Of a stretch of DNA of 64,000 nucleotides, positions 2,623 to 56,770 are shown in pieces. The notes below the pieces were generated by a model. It saw only the letters and a program-made list of their open reading frames with translations. It had not been told where the DNA came from and searched no databases. Each line of letters starts with the position of its first letter. Positions within the stretch are counted from its first letter, which is position 1. A program made the translations under genes and the position numbers. Source of the DNA: an uncultured virus (IMG/VR IMGVR_UViG_3300037631_003085) (lineage: Duplodnaviria > Heunggongvirae > Uroviricota > Caudoviricetes); IMG/VR virus record IMGVR_UViG_3300037631_003085. One strand, 5' to 3'.

Positions 2623-2696
2623 GGACTCGTAGCTCAGCTGGATAGAGCATCTGCCTTCTAAGCAGACGGTCATAGGTTCGAATCCTATCGGGTTCA
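2623..2696 (+). tRNA. tRNA-Arg(TCT)
   Basis: Cloverleaf GGACTCG/CGGGTTC, anticodon arm TCTGC-CTTCTAA-GCAGA, T arm ATAGG-TTCGAAT-CCTAT; no encoded CCA. Confidence 0.95.
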
Positions 2697-2699
2697 CAT

Positions 2700-2783
2700 A
2701 GAGTGGGTAAAAAGTTTAGTACACCTCTGCAGGGGTAAATGTAAGTTACTATTAATAGGACTACGTATCCTAACGACTACTCT
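2700..2783 (+). ncRNA. possible structured RNA inside the tRNA array
   Basis: Closing stem AGAGTGG/CTACTCT, internal hairpins ACCTC-TGCA-GGGGT and TAGGA-CTACGTA-TCCTA. Confidence 0.35.
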
Positions 2784-2788
2784 TATTT

Positions 2789-2860
2789 GCTCGGTTCGTC
2801 TATCGGTTAGGACCTATGGTTTTCATCCATAAAAGAGGGGTTCGATTCCCCTACCGAGTA
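2789..2860 (+). tRNA. tRNA-Glu(TTC)
   Basis: GCTCGGT/ACCGAGT acceptor, TATGG-TTTTCAT-CCATA anticodon arm, AGGGG-TTCGATT-CCCCT T arm. Confidence 0.95.
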
Positions 2861-2864
2861 CAAT

Positions 2865-2935
2865 TGTCCGATGGTGTAATGGCAACACTTCTGTTTTTGG
2901 TACAGACATTCAAGGTTCGAGTCCTTGTCGGATAA
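2865..2935 (+). tRNA. tRNA-Gln(TTG)
   Basis: TGTCCGA/TCGGATA acceptor, TCTGT-TTTTGGT-ACAGA anticodon arm, CAAGG-TTCGAGT-CCTTG T arm. Confidence 0.95.
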
Positions 2936-2988
2936 CTAAGTTTACTAAAGTTGAGTAGACTATTTATTTAAAATTAAATTACAAAGTC

Positions 2989-3246
2989 ATGAGTAAAATT
3001 TCAAGAAGATTATTCCAAGCATTGGAATCAAAATATACGGCAGAGATTATGGATGCAAGAGCACGTATCTCTATCTACTTTGAAAATCCGGTAGCTATCG
3101 GAGAACACCCACAACATACTGAAGAGATTGATTTGTTAGTATCACAGTTGACTGATGCTACTGATAAACTATCTACACTACGTGATAACTTTGGCCAAGA
3201 GTATGGTGAGTTTGATGATAACGACAAACAAGTATTAAAGGGATAA
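2989..3246 (+). CDS. conserved T4-like phage hypothetical protein
   Basis: 85 aa with NPVAIGEHP motif of a small protein I recognise from T4-like aquatic phages. Confidence 0.75.
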   Translation: MSKISRRLFQALESKYTAEIMDARARISIYFENPVAIGEHPQHTEEIDLLVSQLTDATDKLSTLRDNFGQEYGEFDDNDKQVLKG

Positions 3247-3255
3247 TATCCGCTA

Positions 3256-3340
3256 GGAAGATTGGCAGAGTGGTCGATTGCACTGGTCTTGAAAACCAGC
3301 GTACAGCAATGTACCATAGGTTCGAATCCTATATCTTCCG
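3256..3340 (+). tRNA. tRNA-Ser(TGA)
   Basis: GGAAGAT/ATCTTCC acceptor, CTGGT-CTTGAAA-ACCAG, long variable arm GTACA-GCAA-TGTAC, T arm TTCGAAT, G73. Confidence 0.95.
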
Positions 3341-3369
3341 CAATTCGCAGTCAAGTATTTTATATTTTA

Positions 3370-3401
3370 TTTGTTTTATTCAAAAAATTGTTGTATATTG
3401 T
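3370..3401 (+). promoter_or_regulatory. Bacteroidota-type sigma-A promoter for the Gly tRNA cluster
   Basis: TTTG 3370-3373, 20-nt spacer, TATATTGT 3394-3401. Confidence 0.6.
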
Positions 3402-3413
3402 ATAAACAATAAC

Positions 3414-3485
3414 GCGGGAGAAGACTTAAAAGAAAGTCGTCTATCATCCAGATAGAAGGTGTTGGGGCAGTACCAACCTCCCGCT
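3414..3485 (+). tRNA. non-canonical tRNA-Gly(TCC)-like RNA, copy 1
   Basis: Perfect 72-nt cloverleaf: GCGGGAG/CTCCCGC, GACT/AGTC, TCTAT-CATCCAG-ATAGA, GTTGG-GGCAGTA-CCAAC, U73; lacks U8, U33 and TTC. Confidence 0.8.
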
Positions 3486-3488
3486 CAA

Positions 3489-3548
3489 AGAGAATGGTTA
3501 AAGATTGGGATAAGGCCGCTCAATTTAAGCTACCGGTTATCATTCTCT
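3489..3548 (+). ncRNA. possible structured spacer RNA between the two non-canonical tRNAs
   Basis: 10-bp closing stem AGAGAATGGT/ATCATTCTCT with inner hairpin GATTGGG/CTCAATT. Confidence 0.35.
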
Positions 3549-3553
3549 ATAAT

Positions 3554-3625
3554 GCGGAAGAGGAGTTAAGAGAAACTCGTTGAACATCCAGTTCAAAGAT
3601 GGTGGGGCGGAGCCACCCTTCCGCT
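3554..3625 (+). tRNA. non-canonical tRNA-Gly(TCC)-like RNA, copy 2
   Basis: Perfect 72-nt cloverleaf: GCGGAAG/CTTCCGC, GAGT/ACTC, TTGAA-CATCCAG-TTCAA, GGTGG-GGCGGAG-CCACC, U73; covaries with copy 1. Confidence 0.8.
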
Positions 3626-3631
3626 CAATAA

Positions 3632-3704
3632 GCGAAAGTAGCTCAGCTGGTAGAGCATCACCTTGCCAAGGTGGGGGTCGCGAGTTCGAATCTCGTCTTT
3701 CGCT
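3632..3704 (+). tRNA. tRNA-Gly(GCC)
   Basis: GCGAAAG/CTTTCGC acceptor, TCACC-TTGCCAA-GGTGG, GCGAG-TTCGAAT-CTCGT, U73; fully canonical. Confidence 0.95.
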
Positions 3705-3716
3705 CTAAGATTCTTA

Positions 3717-4001
3717 ATGAACAAGAAAGAACACATATCTAAACTTTGGAATAAGAAAGACGTATCTGATATAATTCTGATGATGTATACTCTTATAGAA
3801 AATACTGATTGGGATGTAACTGAGAAGAAGAAGTCATACGCTGTATTGAAGGGTATAATTGCATACACTGATAGGGGTGATGACTTGTTATCACATCATA
3901 GAGATTACTTACACAAAGAATGGAGTGATGCTTGGGAAGACCAAATAGATAACTCAGCAAGAGAAGAAATAAAAGAGTGGTTATTAGGACCAGCACTTTA
4001 A
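3717..4001 (+). CDS. hypothetical protein
   Basis: ORF restarted at ATG 3717 because the track start lies inside tRNA-Gly(GCC). Confidence 0.65.
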   Translation: MNKKEHISKLWNKKDVSDIILMMYTLIENTDWDVTEKKKSYAVLKGIIAYTDRGDDLLSHHRDYLHKEWSDAWEDQIDNSAREEIKEWLLGPAL

Positions 4002-4008
4002 TAAGAAT

Positions 4009-4443
4009 ATGATACATTGGTTTTATGGACAGCCAGGAAGTGGTAAGACCACACTGGCTAAAGCTATGATAAGTAACTCACCTCAATTGGAGTTTAAGAA
4101 ACACATACATATTGATGGTGATGAAATGAGAACTATCTTTAATAATAAAGATTACTCAAAAGAAGGTAGGTTGAATAACTTACGTAATGTTAATAATATA
4201 GCAAGATTCTTAGAATACAAAGGGTACGATGTATTCGTATCAGTTGTTGCTCCTTACAATGATATACGTGATGAGCTAAGGGATTTAGATATTAATTACT
4301 ATTACGTACATACAACTGAAACGAGGGGTCGTGAAGATTACTTTGCGTCTGATTTTGAATTCAACGACTCTGATATTAAAATTAACACAACAAACAAATC
4401 AGTTACTGAATCATTAAATGAAGTATTCACTATTCATAGGTAG
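4009..4443 (+). CDS. cysC: adenylyl-sulfate kinase-like P-loop kinase
   Basis: WFYGQPGSGKTT P-loop, IDGDEMR, YSKEGRLNN and VAPY motifs. Confidence 0.75.
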   Translation: MIHWFYGQPGSGKTTLAKAMISNSPQLEFKKHIHIDGDEMRTIFNNKDYSKEGRLNNLRNVNNIARFLEYKGYDVFVSVVAPYNDIRDELRDLDINYYYVHTTETRGREDYFASDFEFNDSDIKINTTNKSVTESLNEVFTIHR

Positions 4444-4768
4444 GTGGCAACCATGGCACGAAGGTCATCAATGGTTAATTGACCAAGAGTTAAATAAAGG
4501 TAATAACGTTTGTCTTGCTATACGAGATGTGGAGGTTGATGAGAATAACCCATGGACCGCTAAACGTATACAAATGAGATTGGGTCACATTCACTACGAC
4601 TTGATAACTCAAGGTAGAATTAAAACTGTTATTATTCCTGACATACAATCGGTTAACTATGGTAGAGGTGTGGGTTATGACATAAATGAACACGTGCCAC
4701 CACAAGAGGTATCCGACATATCAGCTACTAAGATTCGAGAACAAATGAAAAAAGATGGTAAGTTATAA
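4418..4768 (+). CDS. HxGH nucleotidyltransferase (cytidylyltransferase-like)
   Basis: GRWQPWHEGH and ISATKIR motifs. Confidence 0.85.
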   Translation: MKYSLFIGRWQPWHEGHQWLIDQELNKGNNVCLAIRDVEVDENNPWTAKRIQMRLGHIHYDLITQGRIKTVIIPDIQSVNYGRGVGYDINEHVPPQEVSDISATKIREQMKKDGKL

Positions 4769-5154
4769 TGGAATTAATATCAACACATCCAGTTAAGAAA
4801 TCTGATTTAGGATTTCATGCTAATCTATTTGGTGGTAAGTTACTTGCTTGGTTAGATGCAGCTGGGGCTGCGTTTGCATCTCAAGTATGTGACACTCCAC
4901 GAGTCGTTACTATTAAGATAGACGAGTGTTTATTTAAACGACCAGCACGTGAGGGTCAGTTAATTAAGATATATGGTAGTGTTGCTGAGATAGGGACCAC
5001 TTCGGTTACATTGTATATGGAAGCAAGAGCACATAACGTATACTCAGGTAATCAATCAGTTATACTATCTACAAACATAAAATTCGTAAGGGTAGATGAA
5101 AATGGTGATTCAATACCTATATCGGATAGAGTTCGTGATAAATTTAAAAAATAG
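4768..5154 (+). CDS. HotDog-fold acyl-CoA thioesterase (YciA-like)
   Basis: DLGFHANLFGGKLLAWLD, VT..ID...FKRP, G.TS and FVRVDENG motifs. Confidence 0.85.
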   Translation: MELISTHPVKKSDLGFHANLFGGKLLAWLDAAGAAFASQVCDTPRVVTIKIDECLFKRPAREGQLIKIYGSVAEIGTTSVTLYMEARAHNVYSGNQSVILSTNIKFVRVDENGDSIPISDRVRDKFKK

Positions 5155-5155
5155 A

Positions 5156-5176
5156 TGTTGATAACTTTGTGGATAA
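5156..5176 (-). promoter_or_regulatory. tandem DnaA-box-like sites
   Basis: TGTTGATAA 5156-5164 and TGTGGATAA 5168-5176; the latter is the reverse complement of TTATCCACA. Confidence 0.4.
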
Positions 5177-5190
5177 CTTAGTATTTATAC

Positions 5191-5325
5191 ATGATGAAAA
5201 AAACAAAAGACACATTACAAAAAAAAGAGTTTACCATTCAAGAGATATGGCAGGCTATGCGTGGTAATGTACATAAAAGTAAAAAACAATATACGCGTAA
5301 GGCTAAACATAAGAAAAACTTATAG
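5191..5325 (+). CDS. 44-aa basic protein, candidate ArfA/BrfA-like ribosome rescue factor (not in ORF track)
   Basis: MMKKTKDTLQKKEFTIQEIWQAMRGNVHKSKKQYTRKAKHKKNL; K-x-KK...Y-x-RK-x-KH tail; own TATTTATA motif upstream and hairpin downstream. Confidence 0.55.
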   Translation: MMKKTKDTLQKKEFTIQEIWQAMRGNVHKSKKQYTRKAKHKKNL

Positions 5326-5338
5326 TTTGCGTTACATC

Positions 5339-5370
5339 GTTAGTGATTTCTAAGTCACTAACTTTCTTAT
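5339..5370 (+). terminator. intrinsic terminator-like hairpin
   Basis: GTTAGTGA/TCACTAAC 8-bp stem followed by TTTCTTATTT. Confidence 0.55.
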
Positions 5371-5409
5371 TTAGATTCGTTCTAAATTTAAGATTAATTC
5401 AAATACTTC

Positions 5410-5440
5410 TTGGCATTTCGGATTTTTATTCGTATCTTTA
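5410..5440 (+). promoter_or_regulatory. Bacteroidota-type sigma-A promoter
   Basis: TTG 5410-5412, 20-nt spacer, TATCTTTA 5433-5440. Confidence 0.6.
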
Positions 5441-5475
5441 CATAGTAAAGAGAGATAATTAATAAAGAATAAAAA

Positions 5476-5661
5476 ATGAAAAAATCAATCAACGTAAGTC
5501 AAGAGAATTCAAAAATGTTAGGTGGTAAGTTATATATCACCGGTTTGAAAATGTCAAGATTGGGAGCCAAACTCTCAGAGTCTATCGTCAAGGGTAATAC
5601 AATCAATCACCCTACAATGGGTCTAATGTATGAATACAATGGTCCTTACTCTCGCAAGTAA
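5476..5661 (+). CDS. small hypothetical protein
   Basis: 61-aa ORF behind a promoter with an A-rich start region. Confidence 0.65.
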   Translation: MKKSINVSQENSKMLGGKLYITGLKMSRLGAKLSESIVKGNTINHPTMGLMYEYNGPYSRK

Positions 5662-5678
5662 AATAGTTTCAGAAAACT

Positions 5679-5734
5679 TTAACAATTTCTTAACATTAGG
5701 AACTTGTTTATATCGAATATATTCACTACTTTAG
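5679..5734 (+). promoter_or_regulatory. promoter with TTAACA-N5-TTAACA box
   Basis: TTAACA 5679-5684 and 5690-5695, TTG 5704-5706, 20-nt spacer, TACTTTAG 5727-5734. Confidence 0.7.
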
Positions 5735-5748
5735 TATAGTAATAAGAA

Positions 5749-7863
5749 ATGAGAAGTATGTCAAAAAATAATCTATCCTATTCATCGTTCTGGCTTGATG
5801 AGTCAATCTTCGATGATACTGAGATTTCTTCAGTAGAAAAGAAGTCAAATGACTTAATGAAGTTAATGTCTTACAAACGTAGTATCGCTAACTTCGTTTC
5901 CATCGTAACTGGCAAGTCAATTCCTGTGACCTTTGATGGTCGTGGAGACCAATCCTATACTGATGGTACTGAGGTTGTTATATCGGCTAAGTTAGATGAT
6001 AAAGAGTTCGACCCTGTTGTTGGTCTGGCTCTCCACGAGGGTTCTCACATCGCACTGACTGACTTTACAACACTTACGGAAATGAATCGTGGTTACCTAC
6101 CTACTACTATTGATAAAGAGTGGATGGCTAATCGTTACCAATGTGAGACTGATGAACTTAGTCACATAGTTAGTAACAATCTAAAATCACTTCTTAACTA
6201 CGTTGAAGATAGACGTATTGATAATCACGTTTACACTACGGCGCCTGGCTATCGTGGTTACTACGAGTCTATGTACGATAAGTACTTTCACTCTAAGGTA
6301 ATTGACAAAGGTCTTGAGTCTTCTGAGTATCGTACTGAGGATTGGGATTCTTATATGTTCCGTATCATCAACTTGACTAACGAGAATCGTGACCTCGATG
6401 CTCTTAAAGGTCTTCGTGAGATTTGGAATGTACTTAATCTACGTAACATATCACGACTAAAATCATCGTGGGAAGCTATGGATGTGGCTGGTGAGATTCT
6501 TATGATTGTTGAAAAACAACTTGAGGTTGCCGGTAGTGATACTGGCTCATCGTCTAATGGTGATGGTGAACCACAAGGTGGTGATAGTGAAAATGGTGAG
6601 TCACCTATGAGTGGTGACACTGAGAATAACCCCACTTCTGATGATGGTATGAGTTCTAATGGAAATGGTGAAACATCACCAAGTGACTCCGATGATGGTT
6701 CAGATTCAGATGATGAGTCTACACAAGGTGGGTCTCCAAGTGGTGAAGGTAATCCTAATGGGGCTGGTGGTCAATATGAACCACTCTCAGACCGCCAAAA
6801 GAAAATGTTGGATAACGCTATTGAAAAACAAAAAGAGTTTCAAGAAGGTGATGTTAAGAAGAAGAAGATTTCCAAGTCTGACAAGAATAAGATTGACCAA
6901 TTAGATAAGGCTGATATCAAGTCTGAGGTTACTGGTAAGGGATTCGCCAAAAGTAATTGGTCGGTTGGTTCCAATGGAGTTCAAACCTACATTATTAACA
7001 ATTTAACCCGTGGGTTAATTGATTCGGATATGGTGGGTATGTTGACTAATTCGGAATACAGAACCAGTGGTAGTGATAAGTATATCAAGAAGGGTATTCA
7101 GTTGGGTACTATTCTTGGTAAGAAACTCAAGACTCGTAATGAGGAACGTGTCCTCACTACCCCACGAATGAAGAGTGGTAAGTTGAGTAGTCGTATGATT
7201 CATGAGATTGGGTTTGGTAACTTCGATATCTTTGAACAAACTTTAATAAGTAACGCTACACCGATTGTATTACATATTTCAATTGACGCGAGTTCATCAA
7301 TGAATGGGTCAAAATGGAATAGTACACAAACCGCTGCTGTGGCTATTGCTAAGGCGGCTTCGATGACTGACAACATTGATGTTGTTATTTCGTACCGAGG
7401 TATCTACTACTCACCAGGCAATTGGAGTAAGTGTCAACCACTAATGTTGATTGCATATGATAGTCGTAAAGATAAGTTCTCAAAGATTCAACAATTATTT
7501 AAACACATTCAATCCGATGGTACTACTCCTGAGGGATTGTGTTATGAGGCTGTGATGAATGAGATTACTAAAACCAAATCAGGTGTGGACACATACCTAA
7601 TAAACTTCTCAGATGGTTTTCCTGGTTTTGATAACCAAGAGATTTCTTATGGGGGTCAAGCCGCCAGAAAACATACGGCAGAGCAAGTGTCTAAAATGAG
7701 AAAGGCTGGAGTTAAGGTGTTGTCATATTTCATATCCGAATGGGAGGGGCATGGTACTGATGGGTTTAAACAAATGTATGGAAACGATGCTGAATTTATT
7801 GACACCAATAATATGACCCAACTGGCTAAGACCTTAAATAAGAAGTTTGAAGTTGTTATTTAA
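5749..7863 (+). CDS. CobT-like protein: HExxH metallopeptidase-like domain, acidic linker, C-terminal vWA domain
   Basis: ALHEGSH, NYVEDRRID, low-complexity S/G/D linker, IDASSSM MIDAS, GTTPE, FSDG. Confidence 0.85.
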   Translation: MRSMSKNNLSYSSFWLDESIFDDTEISSVEKKSNDLMKLMSYKRSIANFVSIVTGKSIPVTFDGRGDQSYTDGTEVVISAKLDDKEFDPVVGLALHEGSHIALTDFTTLTEMNRGYLPTTIDKEWMANRYQCETDELSHIVSNNLKSLLNYVEDRRIDNHVYTTAPGYRGYYESMYDKYFHSKVIDKGLESSEYRTEDWDSYMFRIINLTNENRDLDALKGLREIWNVLNLRNISRLKSSWEAMDVAGEILMIVEKQLEVAGSDTGSSSNGDGEPQGGDSENGESPMSGDTENNPTSDDGMSSNGNGETSPSDSDDGSDSDDESTQGGSPSGEGNPNGAGGQYEPLSDRQKKMLDNAIEKQKEFQEGDVKKKKISKSDKNKIDQLDKADIKSEVTGKGFAKSNWSVGSNGVQTYIINNLTRGLIDSDMVGMLTNSEYRTSGSDKYIKKGIQLGTILGKKLKTRNEERVLTTPRMKSGKLSSRMIHEIGFGNFDIFEQTLISNATPIVLHISIDASSSMNGSKWNSTQTAAVAIAKAASMTDNIDVVISYRGIYYSPGNWSKCQPLMLIAYDSRKDKFSKIQQLFKHIQSDGTTPEGLCYEAVMNEITKTKSGVDTYLINFSDGFPGFDNQEISYGGQAARKHTAEQVSKMRKAGVKVLSYFISEWEGHGTDGFKQMYGNDAEFIDTNNMTQLAKTLNKKFEVVI

Positions 7864-7874
7864 TGTTGATAACT

Positions 7875-7930
7875 TTAACATAAACTTAACATTAAAAGTT
7901 TGGATTTATAAAATAAATGTCGTACTTTAG
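7875..7930 (+). promoter_or_regulatory. promoter with TTAACA-N5-TTAACA box
   Basis: TTAACA 7875-7880 and 7886-7891, TTTG 7899-7902, 20-nt spacer, TACTTTAG 7923-7930. Confidence 0.7.
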
Positions 7931-7949
7931 TACTGTAAGATTGAGAGAT

Positions 7950-8168
7950 ATGAGAAAGACAATTGAAGTAAAAAAAGTTTTAGATTACGTTAACAACCAA
8001 CTCCAACGTACTGATGAGTATTGCGATGATAAGTTCAAAGCAGGTATGTGTACAATGATTGAACGAATGTTGTATGATACCAATCAGTATAATGGGTACA
8101 CCCCATTGAATGATGTTAATGTAGGTGAGGTTGGTTATTACAATCGGTTTTATCATATGAAAAGTTAA
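7950..8168 (+). CDS. small hypothetical protein
   Basis: Start moved to ATG 7950 (MRKTIEVKKV) downstream of the promoter. Confidence 0.65.
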   Translation: MRKTIEVKKVLDYVNNQLQRTDEYCDDKFKAGMCTMIERMLYDTNQYNGYTPLNDVNVGEVGYYNRFYHMKS

Positions 8169-8220
8169 CATAAACTTAACATTAAAAGTTTGGAGTTGTG
8201 AACCTAAATCACTATATTTA
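8165..8220 (+). promoter_or_regulatory. promoter with TTAACA-N5-TTAACA box
   Basis: TTAACA 8165-8170 and 8176-8181, TTTG 8189-8192, 20-nt spacer, TATATTTA 8213-8220; first 30 bp identical to 7875-7904. Confidence 0.7.
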
Positions 8221-8248
8221 CAGAGTAATAATTGAGAAATATAAAAAT

Positions 8249-9514
8249 ATGAAGTCACAAAAATCAGTTTTCGGTAAGATTGTAGAAGTAGACAATCAAC
8301 TAATGTTTCAAGACTCCAATGGAGTTAACTTCCTTATTGAGGAATTAAACGAGAAGGGTTCTTCTCTTTACAAACGTGCCAGAGCGGCCGCCAACAATCC
8401 TGCTAAGTGGGGATGGAAGGTTCGTGTCGTTGGTCGATTGTCCGATGGTGAGTTAGGACACACACGTGTTCCATCATCAAAGGTTGAAGATAACCTTGAG
8501 CCTGTTGGTAACTTCAACAATCCAAATGGTGGGTTGTTATCATTGGAGTATAAACCAAAATCACAATCAACACCAATTTCAGTTGAGATGTCAGATGATG
8601 TCCTCAAGTTTATTCACGAGGAGTCTGAAGGTCTTAAACCTCAGATGTTGTTTATGAATCCTTTGAAGTGGAAACTTCTTATTCGTAACATTATCCGTGG
8701 TAAGAATATTATGATGACTGGTCCAGCCGGTTGTGGTAAGACTATGGCTGCTAAGGCTGCTGCCAATTCAATTGAAGGTTACAACACCTTTGTAATTAAC
8801 TTGGGAGCTACCCAAGACCCACGAACCACATTGATTGGGAACACTCAGTTTGAAACCAAGAAAGGTACGGTGTTTAACCCATCACCATTTGTCAAGGCGA
8901 TATCCACTCCAAATACCGTGGTTGTTCTTGATGAGTTGACTCGGGCCCATCCTGAGGCTCACAACATTCTAATGACCGTACTTGACCAAGGTCAACGTTA
9001 CTTACGTCTCGATGAGGCTGCTGACGCTCCTGTTGTTAAGGTCGCCGATGGTGTTTCGTTCATCGCCTCTGCTAACATTGGTAATGAGTACACCGCTACA
9101 CGTTCTCTTGACCGGGCAATTCTTGACCGATTCATTCCAATTGAAATGGATACTTTGACTCGTGATGAGGAAACTCAACTACTTCAAATGATGTACCCAT
9201 CGGTTGATATTGAGATTCTAAATAATGTTGCTGAGGTGACTTCCATGACTCGTAACGAGTTGATGTCTGAGTCTCCAAAGTTATCTAACGCACTATCTAC
9301 ACGGACCGCAGTTGAGATTGGGTCTCTACTCTACGATGGGTTCTCACTAAGTGAGGCTGCAGAGTTGGCTGTTTATCCAATGTTCGACCAAAGTGGTGGG
9401 GCTGAATCTGAAAGAGTTTATATGAAACAATATGTTCAGAAGTTCTTAGGTGAGATTCCTCAAGATGATAACTTGTTCAATGTTGAAACCGAAGATATTT
9501 CTAATCCGTTTTAA
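8249..9514 (+). CDS. MoxR/CobS-like AAA+ ATPase
   Basis: GPAGCGKT Walker A, VVVLDELTRA Walker B, ASANIG, LDRAILDRF; start moved to ATG 8249. Confidence 0.9.
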   Translation: MKSQKSVFGKIVEVDNQLMFQDSNGVNFLIEELNEKGSSLYKRARAAANNPAKWGWKVRVVGRLSDGELGHTRVPSSKVEDNLEPVGNFNNPNGGLLSLEYKPKSQSTPISVEMSDDVLKFIHEESEGLKPQMLFMNPLKWKLLIRNIIRGKNIMMTGPAGCGKTMAAKAAANSIEGYNTFVINLGATQDPRTTLIGNTQFETKKGTVFNPSPFVKAISTPNTVVVLDELTRAHPEAHNILMTVLDQGQRYLRLDEAADAPVVKVADGVSFIASANIGNEYTATRSLDRAILDRFIPIEMDTLTRDEETQLLQMMYPSVDIEILNNVAEVTSMTRNELMSESPKLSNALSTRTAVEIGSLLYDGFSLSEAAELAVYPMFDQSGGAESERVYMKQYVQKFLGEIPQDDNLFNVETEDISNPF

Positions 9515-15744: not shown

Positions 15745-16374
15745 ATGGATGAACTATACAACACAACACCAACCTCTGCTGGAGTTAATTTAAGTTATCA
15801 TGATACGGATAACTCTAAAGATGGCCATAAAAGTTTTTATCGTGAATTCGATTATGGTATAGACACCACGGACAATGTTATCTTAATACAAGATGAAATA
15901 TCAAGTGGGTTAACATTTGACATTGTATCTAAGGTCAGATTACTTCTGAAGATAAATGGTGATATCAATACTATTAATATATTACTCAACTCTCCTGGTG
16001 GGGATGTAATCGAAACTTTAGCTTTGATAGATTACATGAAGTCTCAAGAAGCTCAAGGTATTAAGTTTAATATCATCGTAAGAGGGTCAGCTATGTCAGC
16101 AGCAGCACTTCTACTTACTTGTGGTACTGGTCTACGGGCTGCATCTAAACACTCTAAGATTATGGTACATCAATTATCAACAGTCGCAGTAGGTAAGTTG
16201 AGTGATGTTAAATCAAACGCACGATTCTCTGAAGAGTTAGAGAATGATTGTAATCAACTTATGGCTGAAAATTCTAAAATGGACAAAGAGTATTGGGAAG
16301 GTATATCTTCTTCAGACTACTTTATGTCAGCAGAAAAAGCACTTGAGTGTGGTATCATCGATAAAATAATTTAA
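15745..16374 (+). CDS. clpP: ClpP-like serine protease
   Basis: LNSPGG, GSAMSAA (catalytic Ser), IMVHQ (His), DYFMSAEKALECGIIDKI. Confidence 0.88.
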   Translation: MDELYNTTPTSAGVNLSYHDTDNSKDGHKSFYREFDYGIDTTDNVILIQDEISSGLTFDIVSKVRLLLKINGDINTINILLNSPGGDVIETLALIDYMKSQEAQGIKFNIIVRGSAMSAAALLLTCGTGLRAASKHSKIMVHQLSTVAVGKLSDVKSNARFSEELENDCNQLMAENSKMDKEYWEGISSSDYFMSAEKALECGIIDKII

Positions 16375-54522: not shown

Positions 54523-54663
54523 ATGTCGTGTGGGTGTAATAAAAATAAATTAAACGAAGACCTCGAAGTACAAGACCTCGAAGATATCAGACTATTGATA
54601 CGTAGAGAACTTGCAAGAGTGTTCTTTGATTTATATCGTAAGAAAAAGGTGTGGGAAAACTAA
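54523..54663 (+). CDS. small head-region protein (46 aa, MSCGCNKNKLNEDL...), not in ORF track
   Basis: Fills the gap with 1-nt spacing on each side; carries LNE motif. Confidence 0.6.
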   Translation: MSCGCNKNKLNEDLEVQDLEDIRLLIRRELARVFFDLYRKKKVWEN

Positions 54664-54664
54664 G

Positions 54665-55303
54665 ATGAAACAACTACTTGTAGATACAATGATATTTGAA
54701 GTAACACCTACTATGTTACAAGAAGCAAAGGACCAGACTGGTCGTTTCTTAGTAAATGGTGTGTTACAACGTGCTGATGCTAAAAACCAAAATGGTAGAG
54801 TGTATCCACGTAACATCTTAGAACGTGAAGTAAAGAAATACCAAGGACGTGAAATCAAAGAGAATCGTGCTTATGGTGAATTGGACCATCCTGAAAGTGG
54901 TGTAGTCGAATTAAAGAACACATCACACATTATCCGTGAAGTATCATGGAATGGTGATGATGTTGTTGGAACAGTTGAAATACTAAATACACCAGCTGGA
55001 AAGATTTTACAAGAATTAGTAAAAGCTGGGTGTACTGTTGGTATCTCGTCAAGAGGTATGGGTTCCGTAAAACAAATTGGTGAAGACACCGTCGCAGTAG
55101 AACAAGACTTTGATTTGATATGTTGGGACTTTGTTTCTAACCCATCAACTCATGGAGCATTTCTCTCACCAACAAACGAGGGTACGATAAACGAATCGGT
55201 TACTGTTAAAAAGAATACTTATAAATACAATAAAGCTAACAATATGATGAGAGACATCATGTGTGAGGTTGGTGGATATTGTGAATGTGATTTTGGAGTA
55301 TAA
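54665..55303 (+). CDS. prohead protease (gp21-like)
   Basis: N.NGRVYP, GELDHP, SH, GISSRGMGS, DFVSNPS; start moved to ATG 54665. Confidence 0.95.
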   Translation: MKQLLVDTMIFEVTPTMLQEAKDQTGRFLVNGVLQRADAKNQNGRVYPRNILEREVKKYQGREIKENRAYGELDHPESGVVELKNTSHIIREVSWNGDDVVGTVEILNTPAGKILQELVKAGCTVGISSRGMGSVKQIGEDTVAVEQDFDLICWDFVSNPSTHGAFLSPTNEGTINESVTVKKNTYKYNKANNMMRDIMCEVGGYCECDFGV

Positions 55304-56438: not shown

Positions 56439-56462
56439 TTAACTTTACAAACACTATTTATA

Positions 56463-56494
56463 GACACCTATCGTTAGTTCGATGGGTGTTTTTT
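56463..56494 (+). terminator. terminator-like hairpin upstream of bS21
   Basis: GACACCTATCG/CGATGGGTGTT stem followed by TTTT. Confidence 0.55.
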
Positions 56495-56512
56495 GTTTAT
56501 TAAATAAAATAT

Positions 56513-56770
56513 ATGTCATACAAACGAGAAAAAAAAGTAAGAAAAGAACGTGAGGAGTTATTCCTATATGGTCATGCTAATGGTGTAAGGGTTATTAATA
56601 ATAACATTGAAGCAGCACTTAGAAAGTGGAAACGTATTATGAAAGATAATGGTGTAATTGACCTTATCAAGCAAAATAGGGAATACACTAAACCGACTAC
56701 ACGTAAACGTAAACAAATGAATGATGCTAGACGAGCTGATTGGGTCCGTAGACAACAAGAAGCAAGATAA
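56513..56770 (+). CDS. rpsU: phage-encoded ribosomal protein bS21 with N-terminal extension
   Basis: V.V.NNNIEAALRKWKR......I......REYTKPT..KR matches the bS21 signature. Confidence 0.85.
   Translation: MSYKREKKVRKEREELFLYGHANGVRVINNNIEAALRKWKRIMKDNGVIDLIKQNREYTKPTTRKRKQMNDARRADWVRRQQEAR

What the first reader, a model, noticed from the sequence alone, without database searches (positions are those of the whole stretch)
5191..5325. Unannotated 44-aa ORF resembling ArfA/BrfA ribosome-rescue factors
Seen: MMKKTKDTLQKKEFTIQEIWQAMRGNVHKSKKQYTRKAKHKKNL as a self-contained unit, with the TATTTATA motif at 5182, almost no leader, and a terminator hairpin at 5339-5362. Established, recalled from memory: E. 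coli ArfA has V-EKNKKGKGSYMRKGKH and B. subtilis BrfA has TKSKKEILNKRKHKN. Their basic KH-containing tail enters the empty mRNA channel and recruits a release factor, and their active forms are C-terminally truncated products of non-stop mRNA. Inference: this ORF stops just after the KH motif, so it would be a pre-truncated rescue factor (or mRNA-channel blocker) free of tmRNA control. Short Lys-rich similarity can be coincidental.
Basis: partly seen in the sequence, partly recalled or inferred. Interest (0 to 1): 0.75.

Follow-up and report, generated by a model that had tools for sequence, protein, structure and literature searches.

The report
Phage mini-ArfA ribosome-rescue peptide gene
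A 43-44 codon gene of an uncultured T4-like marine phage encodes a very basic peptide that is a stripped-down, ready-made relative of the bacterial ribosome-rescue factor ArfA, so the phage probably frees ribosomes stuck on broken messages, though no experiment has shown this.

Summary
The ORF at 5191-5325 (+) is real, with the stated sequence, TATTTATA box and downstream hairpin. It is under purifying selection and belongs to a large family of tiny basic proteins, seen here mostly on viral contigs.

It does not reach Pfam's cut-offs (no ArfA hit; DUF7230 18.7 bits against 27). Four independent results still tie the family to ArfA:
- Six of seven PDB hits of the family profile are ArfA chains.
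- Profile-profile alignment to 32 diverse ArfAs beats 300 of 300 column shuffles.
- A 51-aa Pseudoalteromonas phage protein passes the cut-offs of both ArfA and DUF7230 and has the same tail without the GKG insert.
- In a sister clade, 32 of 80 viral loci carry a terminator hairpin inside the reading frame just after the KH motif, as arfA and brfA do.

The window's gene instead has a stop four codons after KH and its hairpin after the stop, so it is a constitutive, "pre-truncated" form. The phage also encodes bS21 and five tRNAs, but no SmpB, tmRNA or RF domain.

Ribosome binding, release-factor recruitment and the Bacteroidota host are inferred. This scan has noted the same family before on other DNA. 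I rate it a new variant of a known kind, interest 0.6.

The parts
5182..5189 (+). TATTTATA box, a promoter-like motif directly before the start codons. It implies a leaderless or almost leaderless mRNA (inferred).
   Evidence: All 9 + strand copies in the window lie 1-100 nt upstream of a + strand ORF start: 5191, 11830, 14655, 29355, 37906, 51253 (portal), 53153, 56513 (bS21) and 60446. ORF starts are and functions. The same box sits 5 nt before the ATG in relatives such as L090, L113-L116, L118, L119, L126 and L131. No transcript start was mapped.
5191..5325 (+). Gene for a 44-aa basic peptide (43 aa if started at 5194), including the TAG stop at 5323-5325. It is a mini-ArfA-like protein.
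   Evidence: Searches show a real, conserved gene under purifying selection. Searches show the relation to ArfA. The peptide has 14 K+R and 3 D+E.
5236..5259 (+). Codons 16-23 (IQEIWQAM), the only predicted helix. It lies in the conserved N-terminal part and is the inferred partner-binding (release-factor) region.
   Evidence: AlphaFold2 with alignment A2: helix 16-23, the rest extended, mean pLDDT 81, and 95 for residues 11-20. Q17 E18 I19 W20 A22 M23 are invariant in 33 clusters.
5260..5322 (+). Codons 24-44 (RGNVHKSKKQYTRKAKHKKNL), the basic tail with the KH motif (K39 H40 at 5305-5310). It aligns to ArfA residues 26-48 and is the inferred plug of the empty mRNA entry channel.
   Evidence: The alignments are the same, with a 3-residue gap opposite ArfA's GKG. 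The role of the ArfA tail and of KH in the channel is taken from passages of the review PMC8012679.
5339..5372 (+). Intrinsic-terminator-like hairpin (5339-5362) and T-rich tail, 13 nt after the stop codon.

Best explanation
The gene encodes a phage-made, release-factor-dependent ribosome-rescue peptide of the ArfA type, in a minimal and constitutive form. Shown: it is a conserved 43-44 aa protein. Its tail R-x-x-V-x-K-x-K-K-x-Y-x-R-K-x-K-H is the ArfA ribosome-docking tail minus three residues. Its family is linked to ArfA by a protein that belongs to both Pfam families. A sister clade carries the arfA/brfA-style terminator inside the frame. Inferred: during infection the peptide inserts its basic tail, with the KH motif, into the empty mRNA entry channel of ribosomes stalled at the 3' end of broken or stop-less mRNAs. 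The conserved N-terminal strand and helix (T-x-QEIW-x-A) would hold a host class-I release factor in the A site. The factor's GGQ loop would then hydrolyse the peptidyl-tRNA and return the ribosome to the pool for phage translation. Because the gene has its own stop codon ahead of its terminator, the peptide is made from a normal mRNA and is not tagged by tmRNA. It would therefore act regardless of the state of host trans-translation. The TATTTATA box shared with the portal and bS21 genes suggests expression with the late genes from an almost leaderless mRNA (inferred).
For: (1) It is a real gene.
(2) PDB-wide search with family profile A2: 7 distinct sequences at E<=10. Six are ArfA chains (5h5u, 5u4i, 5mdv, 5mdw, 5mgp, 7oj0; E 0.029-1.2) and one is a designed coiled coil.
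(3) hhalign of A2 against 32 ArfAs taken from genomes: probability 60%, P 8.4e-5. On core columns the score is 20.5, against 300 column shuffles with mean 8.4, sd 2.1 and maximum 15.6; 0 of 300 reach it.
(4) Six-frame searches of whole genomes with A2: the only hit in the E. coli genome is arfA (E 0.09), and the only hit in G062 is its ArfA locus (E 0.32). In the 121-genome sample, ArfA loci are 2 of the 8 hits at E<=0.1.
(5) Bridge protein: the Pseudoalteromonas phage J2-1 protein (51 aa, own stop) scores ArfA 41.3 bits (cut-off 25.5) and DUF7230 28.6 bits (cut-off 27). It aligns to A2 with probability 86.6%, P 4.5e-6. Its tail lacks the GKG insert, like this family.
(6) 91 of 128 family representatives hit DUF7230, best E 4.2e-6.
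(7) Sister clade: 32 of 80 viral loci have a G+C-rich hairpin plus T-run inside the ORF right after KH. All 4 alifold pairs show compensatory changes.
(8) The architecture is co-linear with ArfA: R24 aligns to ArfA R26 and H40 to H44.
(9) The phage carries other translation genes: bS21 at 49.4 bits and 5 tRNAs.
(10) Passages of PMC8012679 state that the ArfA/BrfA KH motif binds a pocket of the mRNA entry channel, and that arfA and brfA are made from stop-less mRNAs.
Against: The ORF itself gets no ArfA Pfam hit at E<=1 or in six frames at E<=10, and none in NCBIfam. It lies below the DUF7230 cut-off (18.7 against 27 bits). Neither the single sequence nor the close-clade profile A1 finds ArfA in the PDB. 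The A2 profile hit the ArfA locus in only 2 of the 34 ArfA-bearing genomes of the 121-genome sample, at E-values where 19 unrelated weak hits also appear. The first, cruder shuffle control was not clean: 16 of 300 shuffles reached the observed score. The N-terminal, release-factor-binding half does not align to classical ArfA; only the tail does. ArfA's KGKGS loop is missing. The survey in PMC11633108 (Table 1, read) found arfA in 0 of 1,956 genomes of the Fibrobacterota-Chlorobiota-Bacteroidota group, so the probable host phylum has no known partner system. Relatives exist with the module inside 723-763 aa proteins, which a strictly C-terminal channel plug does not predict. No expression data cover the ORF.
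Confidence: 0.55

Rival explanations
1. The peptide binds the channel but does not rescue. It docks in the empty mRNA entry channel like ArfA but recruits no release factor. It would then block host tmRNA-SmpB or ArfB, hold vacant ribosomes, or bias initiation, for example towards leaderless phage mRNAs together with the phage bS21.
For: Only the ribosome-docking tail aligns to ArfA; the release-factor-binding N-terminus does not. The probable host phylum has no known ArfA partner system (PMC11633108 Table 1). The phage also encodes bS21.
Against: The N-terminal part is the most conserved and most confidently modelled part, which points to a specific protein partner. The in-frame terminator of the sister clade is the control logic of a back-up to trans-translation, not of an inhibitor of it. 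The bridge protein J2-1 keeps a canonical ArfA N-terminus with this family's tail.
Confidence: 0.2
2. It is a small basic protein with a target other than the ribosome. It could be a packaged internal head peptide injected with the DNA, or a nucleic-acid-binding protein. The likeness to the ArfA tail would then be convergence of Lys-rich motifs.
For: The module also occurs inside 723-763 aa proteins of large phage contigs. The gene shares its box with late structural genes. All E-values to ArfA are modest.
Against: Residue order, not composition, carries the match (0 of 300 shuffles). ArfA is the only natural PDB protein hit. One protein passes both Pfam cut-offs. The in-frame terminators have no rationale for a structural peptide.
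Confidence: 0.1
3. It is a chance ORF or a non-coding spacer.
For: The ORF is very short. No RNA contig covers it.
Against: 33 close clusters and 139 representatives conserve it. Synonymous codon differences outnumber non-synonymous ones, 282 to 146. It has its own box and terminator.
Confidence: 0.02

Closest known systems
ArfA (YhdL; Pfam PF03889), the RF2-dependent alternative ribosome-rescue factor of Gamma- and some Betaproteobacteria (PDB 5H5U, 5U4I, 5MDV, 5MGP, 7OJ0)
   Same: The active length is the same at about 45-55 aa. The layout is the same: an N-terminal extended segment and short helix, then a basic tail. The tail motif is R-x-x-V-x-K-x-K-K...Y-x-R-K-x-K-H with the KH pair. Relatives share the stop-less-mRNA design.
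   Different: The ORF has no PF03889 hit. It lacks three residues opposite ArfA's GKG. The N-terminal half (T-x-QEIW-x-A) is not alignable to ArfA's G-x-I-x-DNA-x-KAL. It has its own stop codon before the terminator, so no control by tmRNA. It is carried by a phage whose nearest cultured relatives infect Bacteroidota.
Phage-borne ArfA proteins already annotated in GenBank: Pseudoalteromonas phage J2-1 ATN93434.1, Citromicrobium phage RXM gp10 and Erythrobacter phage XM05_102. Pelagiphage HTVC027P gp30 is named ArfA in PMC12753301.
   Same: They are small phage genes. J2-1 (51 aa) and XM05_102 (42 aa) end with a real stop a few residues after KH. J2-1 has the same insert-free tail and also passes DUF7230. 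The HTVC027P passage was read.
   Different: Those proteins pass the ArfA cut-off (29.6-41.3 bits) and keep an ArfA-like N-terminus. Their hosts are Proteobacteria. The window's protein passes neither cut-off.
Pfam DUF7230 (PF23876) and PHROG 2701, families of unknown function
   Same: DUF7230 is the best library hit of the ORF: residues 24-43 against profile positions 16-35. 28 of 33 close and 91 of 128 wider relatives hit it. phrog_2701 scores E 0.0019.
   Different: The score is 18.7 bits against a cut-off of 27, so the ORF is not a member by Pfam's rule. The full-text search for 'DUF7230' found no paper.
BrfA (YqkK) of Bacillus subtilis
   Same: It has a KH motif in a basic C-terminal tail, and a terminator inside the ORF like the sister clade. 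Both points come from passages of PMC8012679.
   Different: No BrfA sequence was compared here. [quoted passage not shown]

Membership tests
ArfA (PF03889) | Scores above the Pfam gathering cut-off (25.5 bits) | tested here: not met
   No ArfA hit at E<=1 for the ORF. None among 33 and 128 relatives. No six-frame hit in the phage genome at E<=10.
ArfA (PF03889) | Basic C-terminal tail with Y-x-RK-x-KH (KH pocket motif) | tested here: met
   Present at residues 34-40. Y34, R36, K39 and H40 are invariant in 33 clusters, and the full motif is in 99 of 128 representatives. It aligns to ArfA 39-44.
ArfA (PF03889) | KGKGS loop before the Tyr | tested here: not met
   There is a three-residue gap opposite GKG in all alignments. 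The same gap is present in phage J2-1 ArfA, which still passes PF03889.
ArfA (PF03889) | Conserved N-terminal RF2-recruiting segment (G-x-I-x-DNA-x-KAL, seen in the 32 ArfAs) | tested here: inconclusive
   It is not aligned to E. coli ArfA or to the 32-sequence ArfA profile. It is aligned in part to J2-1 ArfA. The ORF has its own conserved N-terminal motif and helix.
ArfA (PF03889) | Made from a stop-less mRNA (hairpin inside the ORF), hence controlled by trans-translation | tested here: not met
   In the window the stop is at 5323-5325 and the hairpin at 5339-5362. In all 49 close viral loci the stop falls 3-14 residues after KH. The feature is met in a sister clade, in 32 of 80 loci.
ArfA (PF03889) | Binds non-stop ribosomes and triggers RF2-dependent peptide release | not testable with these tools
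   This needs biochemistry.
DUF7230 (PF23876) | Scores above the Pfam gathering cut-off (27 bits) | tested here: not met
   18.7 bits, E 0.002, and 20 bits in six frames. The best relative has E 4.2e-6.
BrfA | Sequence likeness beyond the KH motif | not tested
   No BrfA sequence was fetched. No BrfA chain appeared among the 7 PDB hits at E<=10.

The most novel reading that the evidence does not exclude
Phages of Bacteroidota, a phylum in which surveys find no ArfA, carry their own large and unrecognised branch of the ArfA superfamily. It comes in two designs. One is governed by tmRNA, with the terminator inside the frame. The other, as here, is always on. The always-on mini-ArfA would recruit a Bacteroidota release factor to stop-less ribosomes. 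Together with phage bS21 and tRNAs it would form a translation-takeover kit that keeps ribosomes available while host mRNA is destroyed or defence nucleases cut RNA. Phages, not bacteria, would then be the main reservoir and vehicle of ArfA-type factors.
Probability: 0.4. Interest if true: 0.75.

Novelty: new variant of a known kind. Interest (0 to 1): 0.6.

Why it matters
Release-factor-dependent rescue (ArfA, BrfA, ArfT) is known from a few bacterial groups only. The survey in PMC11633108 finds arfA in 742 of 15,259 genomes, and in none of the 1,956 genomes of the Fibrobacterota-Chlorobiota-Bacteroidota group. A widespread phage family of minimal ArfA-like peptides would matter in three ways. 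It would extend the mechanism to new hosts. It would show that ribosome rescue is a resource phages manipulate. It would also give a natural 43-aa minimal scaffold for asking which residues suffice to dock in the mRNA channel and switch on a release factor. The paired 'regulated' and 'constitutive' designs within one family are a natural experiment on tmRNA control. The claim is directly testable with a synthetic peptide.

Tried and rejected
- Complex prediction of the family (A2) with RF2_ECOLI gave no answer (score 0.00; the controls were not run). The Bacteroidota RF2 references RF2_GRAFK, RF2_FLAJ1, RF2_BACTN and RF2_FLAPJ are not held, so a stand-in from another host was used.
- Three marine metatranscriptome runs (X1-X3) were laid on 4300-6300. 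Their contigs cover only parts of 4437-4861 and 5883-6300, from relatives at 90-99% likeness. Nothing lies over the ORF, so there is no expression or start-site evidence.
- Megablast of 4000-9000 against the phage collection found no match.
- NCBIfam gave no hit at E<=10.
- The single sequence and profile A1 did not find ArfA in the PDB. Only the wider profile A2 did.
- The shuffle control on the full gapped ArfA alignment was unstable (mean 14.4, sd 27.5, max 133; 16 of 300 reached the observed score). I replaced it by a control on core columns. Both are reported.
- Linkage to tRNA genes was rejected: 2 of 45 related viral loci have a tRNA within about 4 kb.
- The family could not be sought in Bacteroidota chromosomes. 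Whether bacteria themselves carry the family stays open.
- ESM Atlas: a cluster in which 23% of members carry ArfA appeared only at rank 22 with score 0.89. This is a lead only.
- tblastn of the phage bS21 against the phage collection found no match at E<=1e-3.
- PMC10680825, listed for 'ArfA homolog', holds no such passage in its current version.

Full report
**Setting.** The window is bases 100892-164891 of a 172,976-base IMG/VR virus record. All long ORFs are on the + strand. PHROG hits include baseplate wedge proteins, large terminase, portal, head maturation protease and a gp23-like major head protein, so this is a T4-like myovirus. By major head protein the nearest cultured relatives are Microcystis phage Mel-JY01 (56.8% identity), Flavobacterium phage immuto (55.5%) and Rhodothermus phage RM378 (37.1%). 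The only cultured phages with a tblastn match to the small ORF are the four immuto records (E 7e-3), where the gene is a 'hypothetical protein'. A Bacteroidota host is therefore likely but not shown.

**The observation.** The ORF 5191-5325 (+), its translation, the TATTTATA at 5182-5189 and the hairpin at 5339-5362 are all as described. A second ATG at 5194 gives a 43-aa form that also exists among homologues.

**It is a gene.**
- 33 clusters at 90% identity, 41-63 aa long, keep 16 positions invariant, among them QEIW, KSKKQY, R36 and KHK.
- A search without a word index found 139 representatives at 50% identity with E<=1e-3, of which 17 have E<=1e-10.
- Against 27 distinct homologues, a 28-codon core shows 282 synonymous and 146 non-synonymous codon differences.
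- For alignment A2 I used the window protein plus 127 of the 137 newly found representatives. I left out P0039, P0065 and P0114 (tail lost or frame-shifted), and P0091, P0109, P0121, P0133, P0136, P0166 and P0167 (100-774 aa).

**Library searches.**
- The ORF does not hit ArfA in Pfam or anything in NCBIfam.
- Its best hits are DUF7230 (18.7 bits, cut-off 27) and phrog_2701 (E 0.0019).
- DUF7230 is hit by 28 of 33 close and 91 of 128 wider relatives, best E 4.2e-6.
- No paper in the library holds 'DUF7230'.

**Relation to ArfA.** I took E. coli ArfA from the K-12 record. I took 32 diverse ArfAs from 34 genome loci found with PF03889; my motif filter missed two of the loci.
- hhalign of A2 against these ArfAs gives probability 60% and P 8.4e-5. 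It aligns R-p-x-V-x-K-n-K-K---k-Y-t-R-K-x-K-h to r-x-R-v-E-k-x-k-K-G-K-G-S-Y-x-R-k-x-K-h.
- A shuffle control on the gapped alignment was unstable: 16 of 300 shuffles reached the observed score. On core columns the observed score of 20.5 exceeds all 300 column shuffles (mean 8.4, sd 2.1, max 15.6). The order of residues, not Lys content, therefore carries the match.
- The A2 profile searched against 177,635 distinct PDB sequences returns 7 hits at E<=10. Six are ArfA chains (best E 0.029) and one is a designed coiled coil.
- Searched in six frames, the only hit in the E. coli genome is arfA (E 0.09). The only hit in a second ArfA-bearing genome is its ArfA locus (E 0.32). A third ArfA-bearing genome gave nothing.
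- In 121 genomes of the same order, 34 of them with ArfA, the profile hit the ArfA locus in only 2. It gave 21 other weak matches, spread over 19 further genomes. Sensitivity is low, but two of the eight hits at E<=0.1 fall on a gene that makes up about 200 bases of a genome of millions.

**A bridge between the families.** tblastn with E. coli ArfA finds ArfA-like genes in 12 phage-collection records.
- The 51-aa protein of Pseudoalteromonas phage J2-1, annotated ArfA, has a canonical ArfA N-terminus. Its tail lacks the GKG insert, and it ends with its own stop a few residues after KHK.
- It passes the gathering cut-offs of both ArfA (41.3 bits) and DUF7230 (28.6 bits). It aligns to A2 with probability 86.6% and P 4.5e-6.
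- Erythrobacter phage XM05_102 (42 aa, ArfA 36.9 bits) is likewise short and has a stop.
- Phage-borne, 'pre-truncated' ArfAs therefore already sit in GenBank. One paper names a pelagiphage gene ArfA on the basis of a PF03889 domain (PMC12753301, passage read).

**Control logic in relatives.** Several representatives carry an odd extension after KH (K-G-P-x-x-L-S-K-like). I fetched 80 viral loci of this sister clade and scanned from the Tyr codon onwards for hairpins with at least 6 pairs, at least 3 G-C pairs and a T-rich tail.
- 32 loci have the hairpin wholly inside the reading frame, directly after KH.
- 2 span the stop, 5 follow the stop and 41 have none by this scan.
- The stems differ (GGGCC, GGACC, GGATCC, GAGTC, GAGTCGCT types) yet all pair.
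- On 26 distinct sequences RNAalifold finds 4 pairs, and all 4 show compensatory changes.
- This is the design of arfA (a stem-loop giving a stop-less mRNA) and of brfA (a rho-independent terminator before the stop), as described in PMC8012679 (passages).
- By contrast, in all 49 viral loci of the window's own clade the ORF ends with a stop 3-14 residues after KH. In many of them a hairpin and T-run can be seen behind the stop; this was judged by eye and not counted.
- The window's gene is therefore the constitutive design.

**Shape.** With A2 as alignment, AlphaFold2 gives one helix (residues 16-23) between extended segments. Mean pLDDT is 81, and 95 over residues 11-20. The layout is co-linear with ArfA: R24 aligns to R26 and H40 to H44.

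**Expression signals.**
- TATTTATA is not over-represented as such: 16 copies against 10.3 +/- 2.9 in shuffles.
- However, all 9 + strand copies lie 1-100 nt upstream of + strand ORF starts, including those of portal and bS21. By my estimate, about a tenth of the window lies that close upstream of a listed ORF start.
- At the ArfA-like gene the box ends 1 nt before the first ATG and 4 nt before the second. In a related clade it ends 5 nt before the ATG.
- A leaderless mRNA starting at or near 5194 is a reasonable inference, but no transcript start is known.

**Other translation genes.** The phage encodes bS21 (window 56513-56770; PF01165 49.4 bits; PHROG hit) and five tRNAs. No tmRNA, SmpB or RF-1 domain was found in the record.

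**Mechanism and its status.**
- Established for ArfA (PMC8012679, passages): the tail lies in the mRNA entry channel; the KH motif binds a pocket there; a beta-strand of the factor adds to the domain II/IV sheet of RF2; 40 residues are too few for activity, while 55 suffice.
- Shown here: the phage peptide keeps the tail and KH, has a conserved N-terminal strand and helix, and belongs to a family bridged to ArfA, with arfA-like control in a sister clade.
- Inferred: it docks in vacant channels of stalled ribosomes and recruits a host release factor, independently of tmRNA.
- The survey in PMC11633108 (section with Table 1) finds arfA in 0 of 1,956 genomes of the Fibrobacterota-Chlorobiota-Bacteroidota group and arfB in 1,426. 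The partner in the probable host is therefore unknown.

**Rivals.** These are a channel plug without release activity, a non-ribosomal basic peptide and a chance ORF. They are weighed in their own sections.

**Novelty.** Phage ArfA as an annotation is in print and in GenBank. I found no paper on this divergent family, on its Bacteroidota-phage setting or on its two control designs. Earlier notes of this scan describe the same family on other DNA. I re-tested the links to DUF7230 and ArfA and the in-frame terminators myself. I only glimpsed the forms embedded in large proteins (P0133 and P0136).

Noticed in passing
window 56455-56770: A phage-encoded ribosomal protein bS21 (85-aa ORF 56513-56770; PF01165 49.4 bits). 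A TATTTATA box lies at 56455-56462, followed by a hairpin and T-run (about 56465-56500) between the box and the start codon. This may be an attenuator in the leader.
   Followed up: partly
window 2623-3705: A cluster of five tRNA genes (Arg-TCT, Glu-TTC, Gln-TTG, Ser-TGA, Gly-GCC), 1.5 kb upstream of the ArfA-like gene. They are the only tRNAs of the 173-kb record.
   Followed up: yes
window 4009-5154: Three overlapping or abutting genes just upstream: an APS-kinase-like P-loop protein (4009-4443), a cytidylyltransferase-like protein (4418-4768) and a 4HBT-family thioesterase (4768-5154). This may be a small nucleotide-sugar or acyl-modifying module.
   Followed up: no
window 5160-5179: The direct repeat GATAACTT occurs twice, 4 nt apart (5160-5167 and 5172-5179), immediately upstream of the TATTTATA box of the ArfA-like gene. 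It may be an operator. It is identical in the three near-identical viral contigs L087-L089.
   Followed up: no
window 5749-9514: A 704-aa protein with weak VWA and cobalamin-biosynthesis (CobT-like) hits, and a 438-aa AAA ATPase (phrog_249 'porphyrin biosynthesis'). This is a CobS/CobT-like pair.
   Followed up: no
window 15745-16374 and 54611-55303: Two separate genes hit head-maturation-protease families (phrog_94 and phrog_207).
   Followed up: no
proteins P0133 (763 aa), P0136 (723 aa), P0167 (100 aa): The QEIW...KHK module occurs inside large proteins of very large contigs (up to 351,976 bases), with a longer insert before the Tyr.
   Followed up: partly
G233:C72:987-1037 and G312:C155:6515-6583: Two genomes of the Enterobacterales-order sample have 65-aa ORFs hit by the phage family profile (E 0.0012 and 0.10) at places other than ArfA. 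They may be prophage-borne members of the family in Gammaproteobacteria.
   Followed up: no
protein P0039 (64 aa): A close homologue whose first 31 residues match the family, after which the reading differs completely. This looks like a frame shift in the A-rich tail-coding stretch.
   Followed up: no
L167, L168, L181, L183 downstream of the gene: Repeated AAAGC(A/T)T(C/T)ACTTTAAGT-like elements follow the sister-clade genes, two or three copies within 60 nt.
   Followed up: no
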